Shown piece by piece: positions 28,906 through 33,698 of a stretch of DNA of 64,000 nucleotides. Source of the stretch: Promethearchaeota archaeon (GTDB lineage: Archaea > Asgardarchaeota > Lokiarchaeia > Sigyniarchaeales > SOKP01); contig JBHLON010000019.1 in the NCBI GenBank assembly GCA_048940445.1, forward strand, positions 1 to 64,000, in the 5' to 3' direction. Made by a program: the position numbers and the translations under genes. Under the pieces are notes generated by a model. The model did no database searches. It was given only the letters and a program-made list of their open reading frames with translations, and was not told where the DNA came from. How positions within the stretch are numbered: position 1 is the stretch's first letter; each line of letters starts with the position of its first letter.

Positions 28906-29667
28906 GTGAAAATTGAAGAGGACTTGGTGAAGATAAAAAAATTTTTAAATCGCCAATTTCAAAATGAAAAGAAAATAAAAATTTTTCAGAAAAGAGAAGA
29001 TCCTCAAAATTATTTTAAACAAATAAAGCTTGGAGTCAATTTAGAAGAATTTAAAGATATAATTCTTCAAGAAGAAACAAGTCTAGAATTAGGAGGTCCT
29101 AAGAAAAAGTCTTTTTCTCTTATTTATCCATTCAAGGATTTTAATTTCTTGGATGATGGAAAAATAGTTATAGTAGGACCAGAAACTAAAGAACTCTCAG
29201 AAAAAGCTATAGACTTTGGAATTATAATATTAATTGGTGTAAATTCTGTTTCAGAAAAAATTTTTGATCAATTCAGAAATATTGCGTTTATTTCAAACGG
29301 AATTGAAGGTTTTATGATACGGACAATTCCGCGGAAATTTTGGTGTCGTATTAGTAATAATGTGATTAATAAAATCTCCTTTGAACTCTTAGCAAATGCA
29401 ATTTTATATCTTTATAATGCTAGGTTTGGAAATTTTATAAAAGCTATAGAAATAATATTGATAAGTTCAGAATTAGATATTATAGATTCTTTGATTGATA
29501 TGACATCTTCCATTCAAGATGTGTTTAACCTAAAATGGAAGGAAAAAGTCAATGAATGGAAAAGAAGAATAGATTGTAATTTTAATTGGGAATGTGCAGA
29601 ATGTCCCTATTATGATTTGTGCGAAAATATCAAGGAAGTTTTAAAAAAGAGAGAGGTGTTAGATTAA
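28906..29667 (+). CDS. CdhC/AcsB-like domain protein (short, lacks the A-cluster region)
   Basis: ET.LELGGP..SF, DGKIVIVGPE, IEGFMIR..WCRIS; C-terminal C-x5-CxxC-x5-C. Confidence 0.7.
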   Translation: MKIEEDLVKIKKFLNRQFQNEKKIKIFQKREDPQNYFKQIKLGVNLEEFKDIILQEETSLELGGPKKKSFSLIYPFKDFNFLDDGKIVIVGPETKELSEKAIDFGIIILIGVNSVSEKIFDQFRNIAFISNGIEGFMIRTIPRKFWCRISNNVINKISFELLANAILYLYNARFGNFIKAIEIILISSELDIIDSLIDMTSSIQDVFNLKWKEKVNEWKRRIDCNFNWECAECPYYDLCENIKEVLKKREVLD

Positions 29668-30440
29668 TAGAAAATCTTGTCAGACCTATTAAGGTAGCTA
29701 TTGTAGGTAAGGGAGGAGTAGGGAAAACCGTAATAGTAGTTCTGCTCGCGAAAGTTATTTCAAAAGATTACAATTATAAGCTATTATTAATAGATGCAGA
29801 TCCTACTCATCCACACTTATGTAACATGCTAAAAATCAAACCTAAAAAGACTCTCGAAGAATTAAGGCTGGATGCCATTAAAAACGCCCATATCGCGAAA
29901 CAAAATCCTCAAAAACTAGCTGAAAAGATTGATTTTGATATATATGAAGGAATGGCTGAAAGTAAAGATTTTTGTATTTTTTCAATGGGTCAACCAGAGG
30001 GCCCTGGATGTTTTTGCCCTTCAAACATTCTATTAAGAAGAGTAATAGAATCAATTTCTCAAGATTTTGATCTTATTTTAATAGATGCAGAAGCTGGACT
30101 TGAGCAAATTAATCGAAAAGTTTTTGCATCTATTGATATTCTTCTAATAATAACTGACTCATCACTTAGAAGTTTGGAAACAGCAAACTCAATTAAAAAC
30201 CATGCTAAAAAGTTTACAAATTACAAAAGGATAGGTGTAATAATAAATAAAGCAAATGAAAATATAGAATTTCTGGTTGAAAAGCTTAAGGAATTAAATC
30301 TTCCATTAATAGGGACTATTCCCGTGGATAATATTGTCAGTGAATTTGATTTACATGGAAATCCTCTTATTGATTTACCAGATAATTCTAAAAGCCTGAA
30401 AAGTATAAGAATCTTGATAAAAGATATTCTTCCTTTTTAA
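29619..30440 (+). CDS. cooC: CooC/AcsF-type nickel-insertion ATPase
   Basis: GKGGVGKT, IDADP, GPGCFCP, DAEAGLEQ; the true start may be near 29667. Confidence 0.88.
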   Translation: MRKYQGSFKKERGVRLIENLVRPIKVAIVGKGGVGKTVIVVLLAKVISKDYNYKLLLIDADPTHPHLCNMLKIKPKKTLEELRLDAIKNAHIAKQNPQKLAEKIDFDIYEGMAESKDFCIFSMGQPEGPGCFCPSNILLRRVIESISQDFDLILIDAEAGLEQINRKVFASIDILLIITDSSLRSLETANSIKNHAKKFTNYKRIGVIINKANENIEFLVEKLKELNLPLIGTIPVDNIVSEFDLHGNPLIDLPDNSKSLKSIRILIKDILPF

Positions 30441-30545
30441 AACAATTTAATACTTTAGGTTAATTTATTAACAATTTCACTTGCCCATGAGACTAATCCT
30501 TCTTTCAATTCGTTAGGATTAATATTTAATGATTTGATGAAAAAA

Positions 30546-30556
30546 TTTTTATATTA
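30546..30556 (+). promoter_or_regulatory. Putative TATA box of the leader-leuS transcript
   Basis: TTTTTATATTA after a purine-rich stretch, about 25 nt upstream of ATG 30577. Confidence 0.5.
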
Positions 30557-30576
30557 AAACACATGATTACTATATA

Positions 30577-30675
30577 ATGATTTCAAATAACACTGCTTCA
30601 TATTCATCTGTAACAGAAGAATTTTATTTAGATGATTTGCTTGCTGTGTTATTGTTATTACTAGAAGCGGAATAA
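30577..30675 (+). CDS. Putative Leu-rich leader peptide of leuS (MISNNTASYSSVTEEFYLDDLLAVLLLLLEAE)
   Basis: 32 codons with 8 Leu, including TTA TTG TTA TTA CTA at 30649-30663; ends 131 nt before the leuS ATG. Confidence 0.75.
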   Translation: MISNNTASYSSVTEEFYLDDLLAVLLLLLEAE

Positions 30676-30765
30676 GTCTGCTTAATCTTTTTCTTTTAAT
30701 TTTTCGGCGGATTATTTCGCGTGGAGTGAACTTTACTTGAAAGAGATCACAGGCGGGCTTTTTCT
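30665..30765 (+). promoter_or_regulatory. Putative attenuator with alternative RNA stems and a U-tract
   Basis: 30665-30671 pairs with 30677-30683; 30667-30682 pairs with 30706-30720; 30674-30683 pairs with 30751-30760; U-rich 30686-30704. Confidence 0.6.
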
Positions 30766-30806
30766 AATAACCAACAAATAAAAAATTATAAAATTAGTGT
30801 GATAAT

Positions 30807-33698
30807 ATGTATAATGCTCTAGAAATTGAGAAAAAATGGCAAAACAAATGGGAAAGTGCAAAGATTTTTGAAGCAGAACCAGATAGCTCTAAAGCTAAAA
30901 TCTTTATTACTTCACCCTATCCGTATGCTTCAGGAACTCTTCATATCGGGCATGGTAGAAGTTTTGTTAATGGTGATATATTTGCACGCTATTACCGTGC
31001 TAAGGGATATAATGTTTTATACCCTATGGCATTTCATATAACAGGAACTCCAGTTTTAGCAATCTCTTCATCAATTAAGAGGAAAGACAAAAAAATTATA
31101 GCTAGAATGAAGGAATATGTTTCTTTACACACAGAGGATCCTAAAAAAGTAAGAGAAATAGTTGACAATTTTACTGATCCTTGGAATATTGTAAACTATT
31201 TTTCTAATACTATGAAATTAGATTTTAAATCAATTGGAATGAGTATAGATTGGAGGAGAGAATTTACAACTGGCGATAAAATTTATAATAAACTGATTGA
31301 ATGGCAGTTTTCTAAATTAGCAGAAAAGAATTATCTAGAAAAAGGAGAATATCCAATACTTTATTGTCCAAGATGTATGAATGCTGTAGGTGAAGACGAT
31401 ATAGCTAGTGGCGATGAATTAAACCTTGATATTAACGAATTCATATGCATAAAGTTTCCCTTCGAGGATGGATACTTAGTTCCCGCTACATTAAGACCAG
31501 AAACGATATATGGAGTAACAAATCTATGGATCAATCCCATTGGAGATTATGTAAAGGCGGATGTAGATGGGGAAATTTGGTTCATCTCAAAAGATGCAAC
31601 TAAAAAGTTAGAACATCAAAATAAAACGGTTAAAGTCCTTGAAACTTTTATAGGTGAAAAACTGATTGGAAAGAAAGTTAAAAACCTTGATAATTCTAAA
31701 GATTTGCCTATTTTACCTGGATATTTTGTTGATACCGACGCTGCAACTGGAGTGGTCTATTCGGTACCCGCTCATGCACCTTTTGATTATATAGCTTTAC
31801 TTGATTTACAAAAAAGTACTGAGTTGTTAGAGAAATTTAATTTAGATAAGAAAGAAATTCAAGATATTAAACCAATTCAAATCATAGAACTAAATGATTT
31901 CCAGGATTACCCTGCTAAAGTTTATTGTAAAAAATTTGAGGTCAAATCTCAGGCTGATAAGGAGAAATTAGATAAAGCCACCGCAGAGAACTATAAGGTC
32001 GAGTTCTACAATGGAATTTTAAATAAAATTTGTGGTCAATATGTAAATAAACCTGTAAGTGAAGCTGTTAATCTTGTAATTGAAGAACTTTTAACGAATA
32101 ACCAAGCAGATAAGATTTACATTCCTGTTACCAAGAGTCTCAAATGTAGGTGTGGGGAGAAAATAATAGTTACTATTCTTAAAGATCAGTGGTTTTTGAA
32201 TTTCGATGCTGGTGATTGGAAGGAAAATGCCTTTGATTGTTTAAGTGATATGATAATAGTTCCAAAAAAATATCGAATGAATTTTGAGAATGTATTTCAT
32301 TGGTTGAAAAAAAGACCTTGTGCTAGAAAACGAGGGTTAGGTACAAAATTACCTTTTGATAAGGATTGGATTATTGAATCCTTAAGTGATTCAACAATAT
32401 ATATGAGTTTCTACACAATAGTACACCATATCAAACTTAATGGAATAAAACCAAATCAATTAATTCCCGAATTCTTCGATTTTGTATATTTAAAAAAAGG
32501 ATCCATAAACACTATTGTAAAAAAGACGAGTATTGATGAAAAATTATTAAAGAAGATGCAAGAAGAGTTTCAGTATTGGTATCCAGTTGATCATCGGCAC
32601 ACAGCAATAATGCACATTTCAAATCATTTGAGTTTTTACATATTCCATCATGTTGCCATATTTCCTAGACATTATTGGCCAAAAGTTATCACTTTAATTG
32701 AACCTGTATTAATTGAGGGCCAAAAGATGGGAAAATCTAAAGGAAACATAATTTCTCTTGGAGATATAAAGACTAAATACTCCGCAGATTTGTTTAGATT
32801 TTATATTTCACATACAGCTGATTTAGGAATTAATATGGACTGGAGAGAGAAAGAAATTCAAGCAGTTAGAAATCATATTGCTAGATTTTATGAATTCATG
32901 CATCTACATATTGAAAATGTAAAAAATTTTGATTATCATTACAAAGATATTCAATCAAAATATGCATGTGTAATTTTATCAAAAATCTCTCAGAATTTTT
33001 TAGATGCTGATGATGCTTTGAAAAACTTCAATTTACGGAAATATCTTCAGCTATCTTTCTATGAGGCATTTAATTTAATACAAGATCTACAAAAACATGT
33101 TGAGGATTATAATGATTTTGAAATTGTATTTAGCATAATTTATAGAGAGTGGCTTAAAATTATATCTTTAACTATGCCTCACCTGTCTGAAGAGTTATGG
33201 GAAATTTCAGGAAGTCAGGGATTTGTTTCAAAATCAGTTTGGGGTCAATTAGATAGTAGATTTATTGATAAAGAACTTGAGATTGAATTTAATTATGTTT
33301 CAAACCTTATTGATGATATCTTAAATATAAAAAAATTAGTTAAAGCTCGAAATACAGAAATTATTTATATCTACACTGCTATTGATTGGAAATATAGTGT
33401 GAACAATCTAATTATAAATAAAAAAGGTGACTTTAACGCTGTTATTACTGAATTGAAAAAAGAACCTGATTTGATGAAGATTAAAGAATTAATTCCATTT
33501 ATCAAACATCAAATAAGTAAACGTAGTTGGAATACTTCTATTCCTAAGTTACATGAAAAACAACTATTAAATGAGTATAAAGGTTATATTGAAAATAGGA
33601 CAAATTCAAAAATCATTATAGATTCTGATATTGATCCTCAAAATAAGGTAAGTAAAGCCATCCCCTTTAAACCAGCAATATATATTGATATCAATTGA
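30807..33698 (+). CDS. leuS: Leucyl-tRNA synthetase (archaeal/eukaryotic type)
   Basis: PYASGTLHIGH, ATLRPET, TGVVYSVPAHAPFD editing motif, ESLSDSTIY, KMGKS. Confidence 0.97.
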   Translation: MYNALEIEKKWQNKWESAKIFEAEPDSSKAKIFITSPYPYASGTLHIGHGRSFVNGDIFARYYRAKGYNVLYPMAFHITGTPVLAISSSIKRKDKKIIARMKEYVSLHTEDPKKVREIVDNFTDPWNIVNYFSNTMKLDFKSIGMSIDWRREFTTGDKIYNKLIEWQFSKLAEKNYLEKGEYPILYCPRCMNAVGEDDIASGDELNLDINEFICIKFPFEDGYLVPATLRPETIYGVTNLWINPIGDYVKADVDGEIWFISKDATKKLEHQNKTVKVLETFIGEKLIGKKVKNLDNSKDLPILPGYFVDTDAATGVVYSVPAHAPFDYIALLDLQKSTELLEKFNLDKKEIQDIKPIQIIELNDFQDYPAKVYCKKFEVKSQADKEKLDKATAENYKVEFYNGILNKICGQYVNKPVSEAVNLVIEELLTNNQADKIYIPVTKSLKCRCGEKIIVTILKDQWFLNFDAGDWKENAFDCLSDMIIVPKKYRMNFENVFHWLKKRPCARKRGLGTKLPFDKDWIIESLSDSTIYMSFYTIVHHIKLNGIKPNQLIPEFFDFVYLKKGSINTIVKKTSIDEKLLKKMQEEFQYWYPVDHRHTAIMHISNHLSFYIFHHVAIFPRHYWPKVITLIEPVLIEGQKMGKSKGNIISLGDIKTKYSADLFRFYISHTADLGINMDWREKEIQAVRNHIARFYEFMHLHIENVKNFDYHYKDIQSKYACVILSKISQNFLDADDALKNFNLRKYLQLSFYEAFNLIQDLQKHVEDYNDFEIVFSIIYREWLKIISLTMPHLSEELWEISGSQGFVSKSVWGQLDSRFIDKELEIEFNYVSNLIDDILNIKKLVKARNTEIIYIYTAIDWKYSVNNLIINKKGDFNAVITELKKEPDLMKIKELIPFIKHQISKRSWNTSIPKLHEKQLLNEYKGYIENRTNSKIIIDSDIDPQNKVSKAIPFKPAIYIDIN

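What the first reader, a model, noticed from the sequence alone, without database searches (positions are those of the whole stretch)
30546..30806. Leucine-codon leader peptide upstream of leucyl-tRNA synthetase: candidate ribosome-mediated attenuation in an Asgard archaeon
Seen: ORF 30577-30675, below the ORF-track cutoff, encodes MISNNTASYSSVTEEFYLDDLLAVLLLLLEAE*. Seven of nine codons at 30637-30663 are Leu, five of them consecutive, and all 8 Leu lie in the distal half. A TATA-like box about 25 nt upstream suggests a leaderless transcript starting at this ATG. A tiny MITI* ORF (30563-30577) overlaps it as TAATG. The next gene is the cognate synthetase. Established: cognate-codon leader peptides control bacterial leu/trp/his and pheST operons by sensing charged tRNA, and archaea couple transcription and translation. 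I am not aware of this being described for archaeal synthetase genes. Inference: a Leu-tRNA-sensing attenuator. Caveat: TTA/TTG runs arise more easily in AT-rich DNA.
Basis: partly seen in the sequence, partly recalled or inferred. Interest (0 to 1): 0.93.

Follow-up and report, generated by a model that had tools for sequence, protein, structure and literature searches.

The report
Leucine-sensing leader before archaeal leuS
A tiny upstream gene ending in a run of leucine codons, followed by an RNA that can fold in two competing ways around a termination-like U-tract, sits in front of a second leucyl-tRNA synthetase gene throughout one family of Asgard archaea; it looks like the ribosome-based amino-acid gauges known from bacteria, which I found no published report of in archaea.

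Summary
The leader is real and conserved. All 45 distinct archaeal-type leuS loci of this Promethearchaeia family with upstream DNA carry a 27–32-codon ORF ending in a Leu run; four more distant homologues lack it. In the 31 loci analysed in detail, a TATA box lies 28–34 nt before the ATG, and only this frame stays open.

After the stop lies a covarying RNA switch. Hairpin S1 holds a U-tract in its loop; the more stable stem S2 buries it. The tract resembles the aCPSF1/FttA signal. A Trp-codon leader precedes trpB2 in 30/30 loci, which AT-richness cannot explain. The gene is a second LeuRS; the bacterial-type copy has no leader. MITI* is not conserved.

Best reading: a Leu-tRNA gauge. A stalled ribosome covers arm A, S2 forms and transcription reads through; otherwise aCPSF1 cleaves and terminates. 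Ribosome sensing about 0.85; this exact wiring about 0.5. Nothing is shown by expression data.

It works like bacterial leader-peptide attenuators but lacks their intrinsic terminator. I found no published archaeal case. This scan has found the same element before in other genomes.

The parts
30539..30553 (+). BRE-like A-run and TATA box of the leader promoter
   Evidence: TATA-like hexamer 28-34 nt before the leader ATG in 31/31 loci (27/31 with a stricter pattern). The start site is inferred, not mapped.
30563..30577 (+). MITI* mini-ORF; incidental, not part of the system
   Evidence: Present in only 2/31 loci; begins upstream of the expected start site.
30577..30675 (+). Leader ORF, 32 codons, leaderless or with a 5' UTR of about 5 nt or less (inferred)
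   Evidence: Homologue in 45/45 family loci. Stops among codons 2-20: 0/31 in this frame, 31/31 and 28/31 in the other two.
30586..30653 (+). Helix P0 inside the ORF: 30586-30593 pairs with 30646-30653 (codons 4-6 with part of the Leu run); candidate pause or no-translation hairpin
   Evidence: Fold. Native pairs beat cross-species swaps in 26/31. Its role is inferred.
30637..30663 (+). Leu control codons (7 of 9; five in a row)
   Evidence: The last ten codons are 66% Leu across 31 loci against 10% in codons 2-16 and genome-wide. All six Leu codons occur; TTA is 184/280.
30666..30721 (+). Hairpin S1: arm A 30666-30680 with arm B 30708-30721, closing a 27-nt loop
   Evidence: 88% of cells paired, 7 pairs with changes on both sides, 0/500 shuffles as high. 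Native better than swaps in 31/31.
30686..30704 (+). U-tract (U5-C-U4-AA-U5) in the S1 loop; candidate aCPSF1/FttA signal
   Evidence: At least two U4 tracts in 21/31 loops against 6.7% of intergenic 27-nt windows. Kept in paralogous modules whose arms differ.
30728..30757 (+). Segment C: pairs with the 3' end of arm A plus the U-tract (30677-30704) to form stem S2
   Evidence: 77.6% paired, covariation score reached by 1/500 shuffles. Native better than swaps in 28/31, controls 13-15/31. S2 is lower in energy than S1 in 29/31, by 7.2 kcal/mol on average.
30807..33698 (+). Archaeal-type leucyl-tRNA synthetase, the second of two LeuRS genes in the genome
   Evidence: NCBIfam TIGR00395 and PRK12300 over cut-off; a bacterial-type LeuRS (TIGR00396) lies on contig C111.

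Best explanation
A ribosome-based gauge of charged tRNA-Leu that controls an auxiliary leuS. One promoter makes a near-leaderless RNA whose first ORF ends in a Leu run abutting arm A of hairpin S1. When Leu-tRNA is scarce, the ribosome lingers on the last Leu codons. It covers the 5' part of arm A and may also keep the termination nuclease off the nascent RNA. Segment C can then pair over the U-tract (S2), and RNA polymerase reads on into leuS. When Leu-tRNA is plentiful, the ribosome finishes and leaves, S1 forms first and is kinetically trapped, the U4 tracts stay unpaired in its loop, and aCPSF1/FttA cleaves and terminates. Shown: the anatomy, conservation and covariation. Computed: folds and barriers. 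Inferred: translation of the leader, leucine sensing, the role of aCPSF1 and the assignment of states to ON and OFF.
For: Leader in 45/45 family loci behind different upstream genes. Open frame kept while codons 2-16 vary. Parallel Trp leader before trpB2 in 30/30 loci. S1 and S2 both covary. The last Leu codon lies 2-6 nt from arm A in all 31 (3 nt in 23). The computed S1-to-S2 barrier falls from 19.1 to 8.9 kcal/mol when the first ten positions are covered. Two U4 tracts are the minimal aCPSF1 site and Loki-aCPSF1 cooperates with U-tracts (PMC8716108). aCPSF1 is encoded here, split over two contigs. The leuS start region is equally accessible in both folds (0.69 and 0.67).
Against: No expression, start-site or 3'-end data were examined. 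S2 is the equilibrium fold even without a ribosome, so the model rests on kinetics. In the FttA structure cleavage is set up within about 36 nt of the RNA 3' end (PMC11616081), before arm B and segment C have left the polymerase, so a later cut in the loop must be assumed. Only the last two or three Leu codons place a ribosome over arm A (footprint from general knowledge). 10/31 loops have fewer than two U4 tracts. Part of the Leu run is also constrained by helix P0. The same RNA module follows Ile/Val- and Val-run leaders before genes with no evident cognate link. The loci are kin, so the counts are not independent.
Confidence: 0.5

Rival explanations
1. Same Leu-tRNA sensing, opposite wiring, as in classical attenuators: a ribosome stalled early in the run leaves arm A free, S1 forms and is the read-through state; a ribosome that reaches the stop covers arm A, and S2 forms and acts as the terminator or decay signal.
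For: Most of the Leu codons lie too far upstream to cover arm A. A ribosome at the stop does cover it, and covering 15 positions abolishes S1. The displaced stop in this genome is tolerated. Roughly half of the loci have a short U-run after segment C.
Against: No conserved U-tract follows S2 (U fraction 0.47 at columns 95-100). A terminator stem would not need a conserved U-rich 5' arm. A stall on the last Leu codons would mimic the fed state.
Confidence: 0.18
2. Leucine-sensing leader whose output is post-transcriptional: stability of the full-length mRNA (loop cleavage) or translation initiation of leuS, as in the mycobacterial polycysteine leaders.
For: Same anatomy as the leaderless polyCys short ORFs (bioRxiv 10.1101/834739). 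No bacterial-type terminator is conserved. aCPSF1 is also an RNase.
Against: The leuS start lies 112-158 nt from the stop, the spacer is not conserved, and its accessibility does not differ between folds. This argues against ribosome-binding-site occlusion but not against a stability effect.
Confidence: 0.15
3. The nascent peptide does the sensing: an arrest peptide (TnaC-like) that responds to free leucine or another ligand, or a general gauge of translation rate or hydrophobic amino acids rather than of Leu-tRNA.
For: Short motifs are conserved (NNTA-like, LLAVLLL). Paralogous modules carry Ile/Val or Val runs, all hydrophobic, before genes of unclear function.
Against: The NNTA-like motif coincides with helix P0. 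The middle of the peptide varies freely. The Leu run sits before leuS and the Trp run before trpB2, matching their products.
Confidence: 0.1
4. The ORF encodes a small hydrophobic protein with its own function, and leuS has a separate promoter; the RNA folds are unrelated to translation of the ORF.
For: The C-terminus is hydrophobic. A TATA-like word occurs in the S1 loop of about 19/31 loci.
Against: The hydrophobic stretch is only about 9-10 residues. The loop word has no purine-rich BRE before it and is absent from about a third of loci. S2 needs RNA from upstream of any such start. The ORF always travels with leuS at a fixed distance from the hairpin.
Confidence: 0.05
5. A chance Leu run in AT-rich DNA.
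For: The genome is 30% GC and TTA is half of all Leu codons. Two other intergenic ORFs have comparable runs.
Against: 45/45 conservation, frame-specific absence of stops, synonymous variation, and the G-rich Trp leader.
Confidence: 0.02

Closest known systems
Classical leader-peptide transcription attenuators of synthetase genes: E. coli pheM-pheST, and the predicted leuS and trpS attenuators of Streptomyces (Seliverstov et al. 2005, PMC1262725); also leuL, trpL, ilvL
   Same: Short ORF with cognate codons ahead of a synthetase gene, followed by competing RNA helices.
   Different: Archaeal TATA promoter and near-leaderless ORF; control codons abut the stop; the conserved U-tract is in a hairpin loop and not behind a GC-rich stem; no conserved intrinsic terminator; no Rfam match.
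Mycobacterial polycysteine leaderless short ORFs (Canestrari et al., bioRxiv 10.1101/834739)
   Same: Leaderless short ORF with a terminal run of the sensed amino acid; the stalled ribosome blocks a downstream pairing.
   Different: There the output is release of a ribosome-binding site. Here the start region is far away and unaffected by the fold.
Factor-dependent attenuation: E. coli tnaC/Rho (own knowledge; mentioned in PMC1262725) and the actinobacterial cys leaders without terminator
   Same: A ribosome held near the stop of a leader protects the RNA from a termination factor whose site lies just downstream.
   Different: TnaC stalls on excess free Trp through the nascent peptide. Here the stall is inferred from hungry codons, and the factor would be the nuclease aCPSF1/FttA.
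Archaeal aCPSF1/FttA U-tract terminators (PMC8716108, PMC11616081)
   Same: Tandem U4 tracts; the factor is encoded in this genome and the Loki orthologue is active.
   Different: Described at gene ends. Here the tract is in a 5' leader and can be masked by a competing helix.

Membership tests
Classical leader-peptide transcription attenuator | Short ORF with a run of codons for the cognate amino acid upstream of the regulated gene | tested here: met
   45/45 family loci; LeuRS identity.
Classical leader-peptide transcription attenuator | Leader and gene in one transcript from an upstream promoter | tested here: inconclusive
   Conserved TATA before the leader; no RNA data. A TATA-like word in the loop is not formally excluded.
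Classical leader-peptide transcription attenuator | Mutually exclusive RNA structures within reach of the ribosome | tested here: met
   S1 and S2 both covary and share the 3' end of arm A; partial coexistence as a pseudoknot is not excluded.
Classical leader-peptide transcription attenuator | Intrinsic terminator (GC-rich stem followed by a U run) as one of the two states | tested here: not met
   No conserved U run after S1 or S2. The one small stem plus U-tract at 30665-30693 is not kept across the alignment.
Classical leader-peptide transcription attenuator | Read-through depends on translation of the control codons and on tRNA charging | not testable with these tools
   Needs reporter, Ribo-seq or in vitro work.
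Mycobacterial-type leaderless short-ORF translational attenuator | Leaderless ORF with a terminal amino-acid run | tested here: inconclusive
   Terminal run met; leaderless start inferred from TATA spacing only.
Mycobacterial-type leaderless short-ORF translational attenuator | Structure that sequesters the downstream ribosome-binding site | tested here: not met
   Start-region accessibility 0.69 against 0.67, with 6 loci shifting each way.
aCPSF1/FttA-dependent terminator | At least two U4 tracts in a short stretch | tested here: met
   Three in this window; 21/31 loci against 6.7% background.
aCPSF1/FttA-dependent terminator | RNA 3' ends at the tract that depend on aCPSF1 | not testable with these tools
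   No RNA data; the gene is present.
T-box or other Rfam cis-regulatory family | Match to the family covariance model | tested here: not met
   Four weak hits, all far below gathering score.

The most novel reading that the evidence does not exclude
Asgard archaea run a ribosome-coupled attenuation system of their own: cognate-codon leaders (Leu, Trp, Ile/Val) gate the access of the CPSF73-like nuclease aCPSF1/FttA to a U-tract through a reusable two-state RNA module. This would be transcription attenuation built on the archaeal-eukaryotic cleavage-type termination machinery.
Probability: 0.5. Interest if true: 0.9.

Novelty: new variant of a known kind. Interest (0 to 1): 0.8.

Why it matters
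A 2021 paper states that no transcription attenuation or antitermination mechanism is known in archaea (PMC8448881), and ten literature searches here found no archaeal leader-peptide case. The library lacks most subscription journals, so this is not proof of absence. If the reading holds, it gives a natural, roughly 190-nt test substrate for two open questions: whether archaeal transcription-translation coupling regulates genes, and whether ribosome and FttA exclude each other on nascent RNA, which PMC11616081 leaves as a hypothesis. [quoted passage not shown]

Tried and rejected
Rfam search: nothing near a gathering score. MITI* as a conserved part: rejected, 2/31. Ribosome-binding-site occlusion: no support. 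Equilibrium folding of the whole leader with a ribosome mask did not separate the states, because S2 wins in both; only length-limited folds and barriers did. The first pair count used a mis-registered structure and was discarded; one search is the correct one. Sequencing runs: no RNA holder listed, so no reads were laid; this is no evidence either way. Motif-based scan of other synthetase and biosynthesis genes in this genome: no cognate leader seen before IleRS, CysRS, GluRS, HisRS, ProRS, ThrRS, AspRS, AsnRS, AlaRS, bacterial-type LeuRS, ilvC or ilvD; the scan was crude and missed several synthetases. A cognate link for the Ile/Val- and Val-run paralogues was sought in their neighbourhoods and not found. 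The Methanothermobacter TrpY paper, which from memory proposes sensing of charged tRNA-Trp at the second codon of trpY, could not be fetched, so that precedent is unchecked. No protein folding or complex prediction was run, as it would not bear on the question.

Full report
Observation. The ORF, the Leu run, the TATA box and the downstream synthetase are as described. The organism is a member of the Promethearchaeia (Lokiarchaeia): the closest named LeuRS records are Promethearchaeota genomes at 62-87% identity. Within this genome, 3 of 1548 intergenic ORFs of 20-45 codons have seven Leu in nine codons.

Conservation. I collected archaeal-type leuS loci from relatives. All 31 distinct loci of the first set with upstream DNA have a 27-32-codon ORF ending in a Leu run. 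A further 18 loci from two other genera of the family, 14 of them new, all have it too. Three loci from another family and one unassigned locus (44-53% identity) lack it, as do more distant archaeal leuS genes. The gene upstream varies, so the element travels with leuS. Among codons 2-20 the leader frame has no stop in any of the 31, while the other frames have stops in 31 and 28. The last ten codons are 66% Leu against 10% in codons 2-16, and all six Leu codons are used, with TTA at 184 of 280. A TATA-like box lies 28-34 nt before the ATG in all 31, which by known archaeal spacing implies a leaderless or nearly leaderless RNA; this is inferred. The MITI* ORF occurs in only two loci. These genomes are related, so the counts are not independent trials.

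Which gene is regulated. The genome has two LeuRS genes: this archaeal-type one and a bacterial-type one on contig C111. The bacterial type appears in nearly all genus members searched, and the four upstream regions I read have no Leu leader. The archaeal type was found in 28 of 42 genus genomes and keeps its catalytic and editing motifs. The leader therefore controls what looks like an auxiliary copy; that it is inducible is inference.

RNA anatomy. Directly after the Leu run comes arm A, then a 27-nt loop holding U5-C-U4, then arm B, then segment C. Hairpin S1 (A with B) has 88% paired cells and seven pairs with changes on both sides; no shuffle reached its score. Stem S2 (end of A plus U-tract, with C) has 78% paired cells and a covariation score reached by 1 of 500 shuffles, though its count of doubly changed pairs was not above the shuffles. 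In a swap test that tolerates register shifts, native partners beat partners from distant species in 31/31 (S1) and 28/31 (S2), against 13-15/31 for two control pairings. S1 forms first and S2 is about 7 kcal/mol more stable. The computed barrier between them is 19 kcal/mol with arm A free and 9 with its first ten positions covered (pseudoknotted intermediates are not modelled). A third helix, P0, pairs codons 4-6 with part of the Leu run, which means the nucleotide sequence of the run is partly constrained by structure.

Independent support for codon sensing. A scan of the genome for short upstream ORFs with amino-acid runs gave a single Trp-rich ORF, ending WQWPWRWQ, and it lies before the TrpB2-like gene on C98. 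A leader with two to four Trp codons is present in 30/30 genus loci, two of them with a GTG start that I read by eye. TGG runs cannot come from AT bias. A covariance model of the leuS module also found the same S1/U-tract/S2 design, with different arm sequences, behind Ile/Val-run leaders before an FrhB-TrmB fusion protein and behind Val-run leaders before a 45-65-residue protein, one of them on C48 of this genome. The module is reusable. The function of those downstream genes is unknown, so they do not by themselves show cognate sensing.

Mechanism. Three conserved features need one explanation: the U-tract is kept as sequence, S2 buries it, and the Leu run abuts arm A (2-6 nt). Two U4 tracts are the minimal binding site of aCPSF1, and the Loki orthologue cooperates with them (PMC8716108). 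This window has three tracts; 21 of 31 loops have at least two, against 6.7% of intergenic windows. aCPSF1 is encoded, split by an assembly break. I therefore favour this reading: a starved ribosome over arm A favours S2 and read-through, and a released ribosome allows S1, an exposed tract and cleavage. The weak points are timing (FttA acts within about 36 nt of the RNA end in the structure; PMC11616081), the reliance on kinetics, and the fact that only the last Leu codons reach arm A. The opposite wiring and an mRNA-stability output remain open. Occlusion of the leuS start is not supported. Summing the first three readings, ribosome-based leucine sensing gets about 0.85.

Comparison. It works like bacterial leader-peptide attenuators, including the predicted Streptomyces leuS attenuator (PMC1262725), and resembles the mycobacterial polycysteine leaders in anatomy. 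It fails a defining feature of each: there is no intrinsic terminator and no masked ribosome-binding site. I do not file it as a member of either. No Rfam family matches. A 2021 paper says no archaeal attenuation was known, and my searches found no later report, within the limits of the library.

Earlier scan notes. After forming this reading I looked up the scan's own findings. The same leuS leader has been reported several times from other genomes, as have Trp, Cys, Met and branched-chain leaders in Asgard archaea. These are unchecked AI notes and are not counted as support.

Verdict. A real, conserved regulatory element; a new variant of leader-peptide control in a domain where I found none published; function inferred from comparative evidence only. 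Interest 0.8.

Noticed in passing
G000:C98:70310-70550 (-); L131-L160: Trp-codon leader (16 codons from the second ATG) before the TrpB2-like gene, conserved in 30/30 genus loci, with a hairpin over the Trp codons and a U-rich stretch after it.
   Followed up: partly
G000:C48:39720-40150 (-); L170, L172-L174, L177-L180: Same RNA module behind a Val-run leader, followed by a 45-65-residue protein of no Pfam family; where the neighbourhood was read (this genome, L213), it is convergent with an aminotransferase-like gene. Function unexplained.
   Followed up: partly
L161-L169: Same module behind an Ile/Val-run leader before a 474-484-residue FrhB-family Fe-S protein with a C-terminal TrmB-type HTH domain; no cognate link found.
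   Followed up: partly
G000:C111:1426-4212 (-): Bacterial-type LeuRS in an Asgard archaeon, apparently the widespread copy in this order, coexisting with the archaeal type in many genomes of this family.
   Followed up: partly
window 30664-30675: The leader stop is displaced by three codons into arm A (TAA changed to GAA) relative to all relatives; some trp leaders show similar extensions. A natural variant useful for testing polarity.
   Followed up: partly
window 29619-30440: Upstream gene is a MinD/ParA/CooC-like ATPase; it is not conserved next to leuS in relatives.
   Followed up: no
G000:C122:6-848 and C119:72724-73836: aCPSF1/FttA gene found in two overlapping pieces on two contigs, most likely an assembly break.
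   Followed up: no
whole genome G000: ARAGORN finds only 10 tRNA genes, and no tRNA-Leu(UAA), although TTA is the main Leu codon; probably incomplete assembly or non-canonical introns.
   Followed up: no
L212:489-722 (G013:C39): A module with a mixed Leu/Val run precedes a 78-residue protein of no Pfam family.
   Followed up: no
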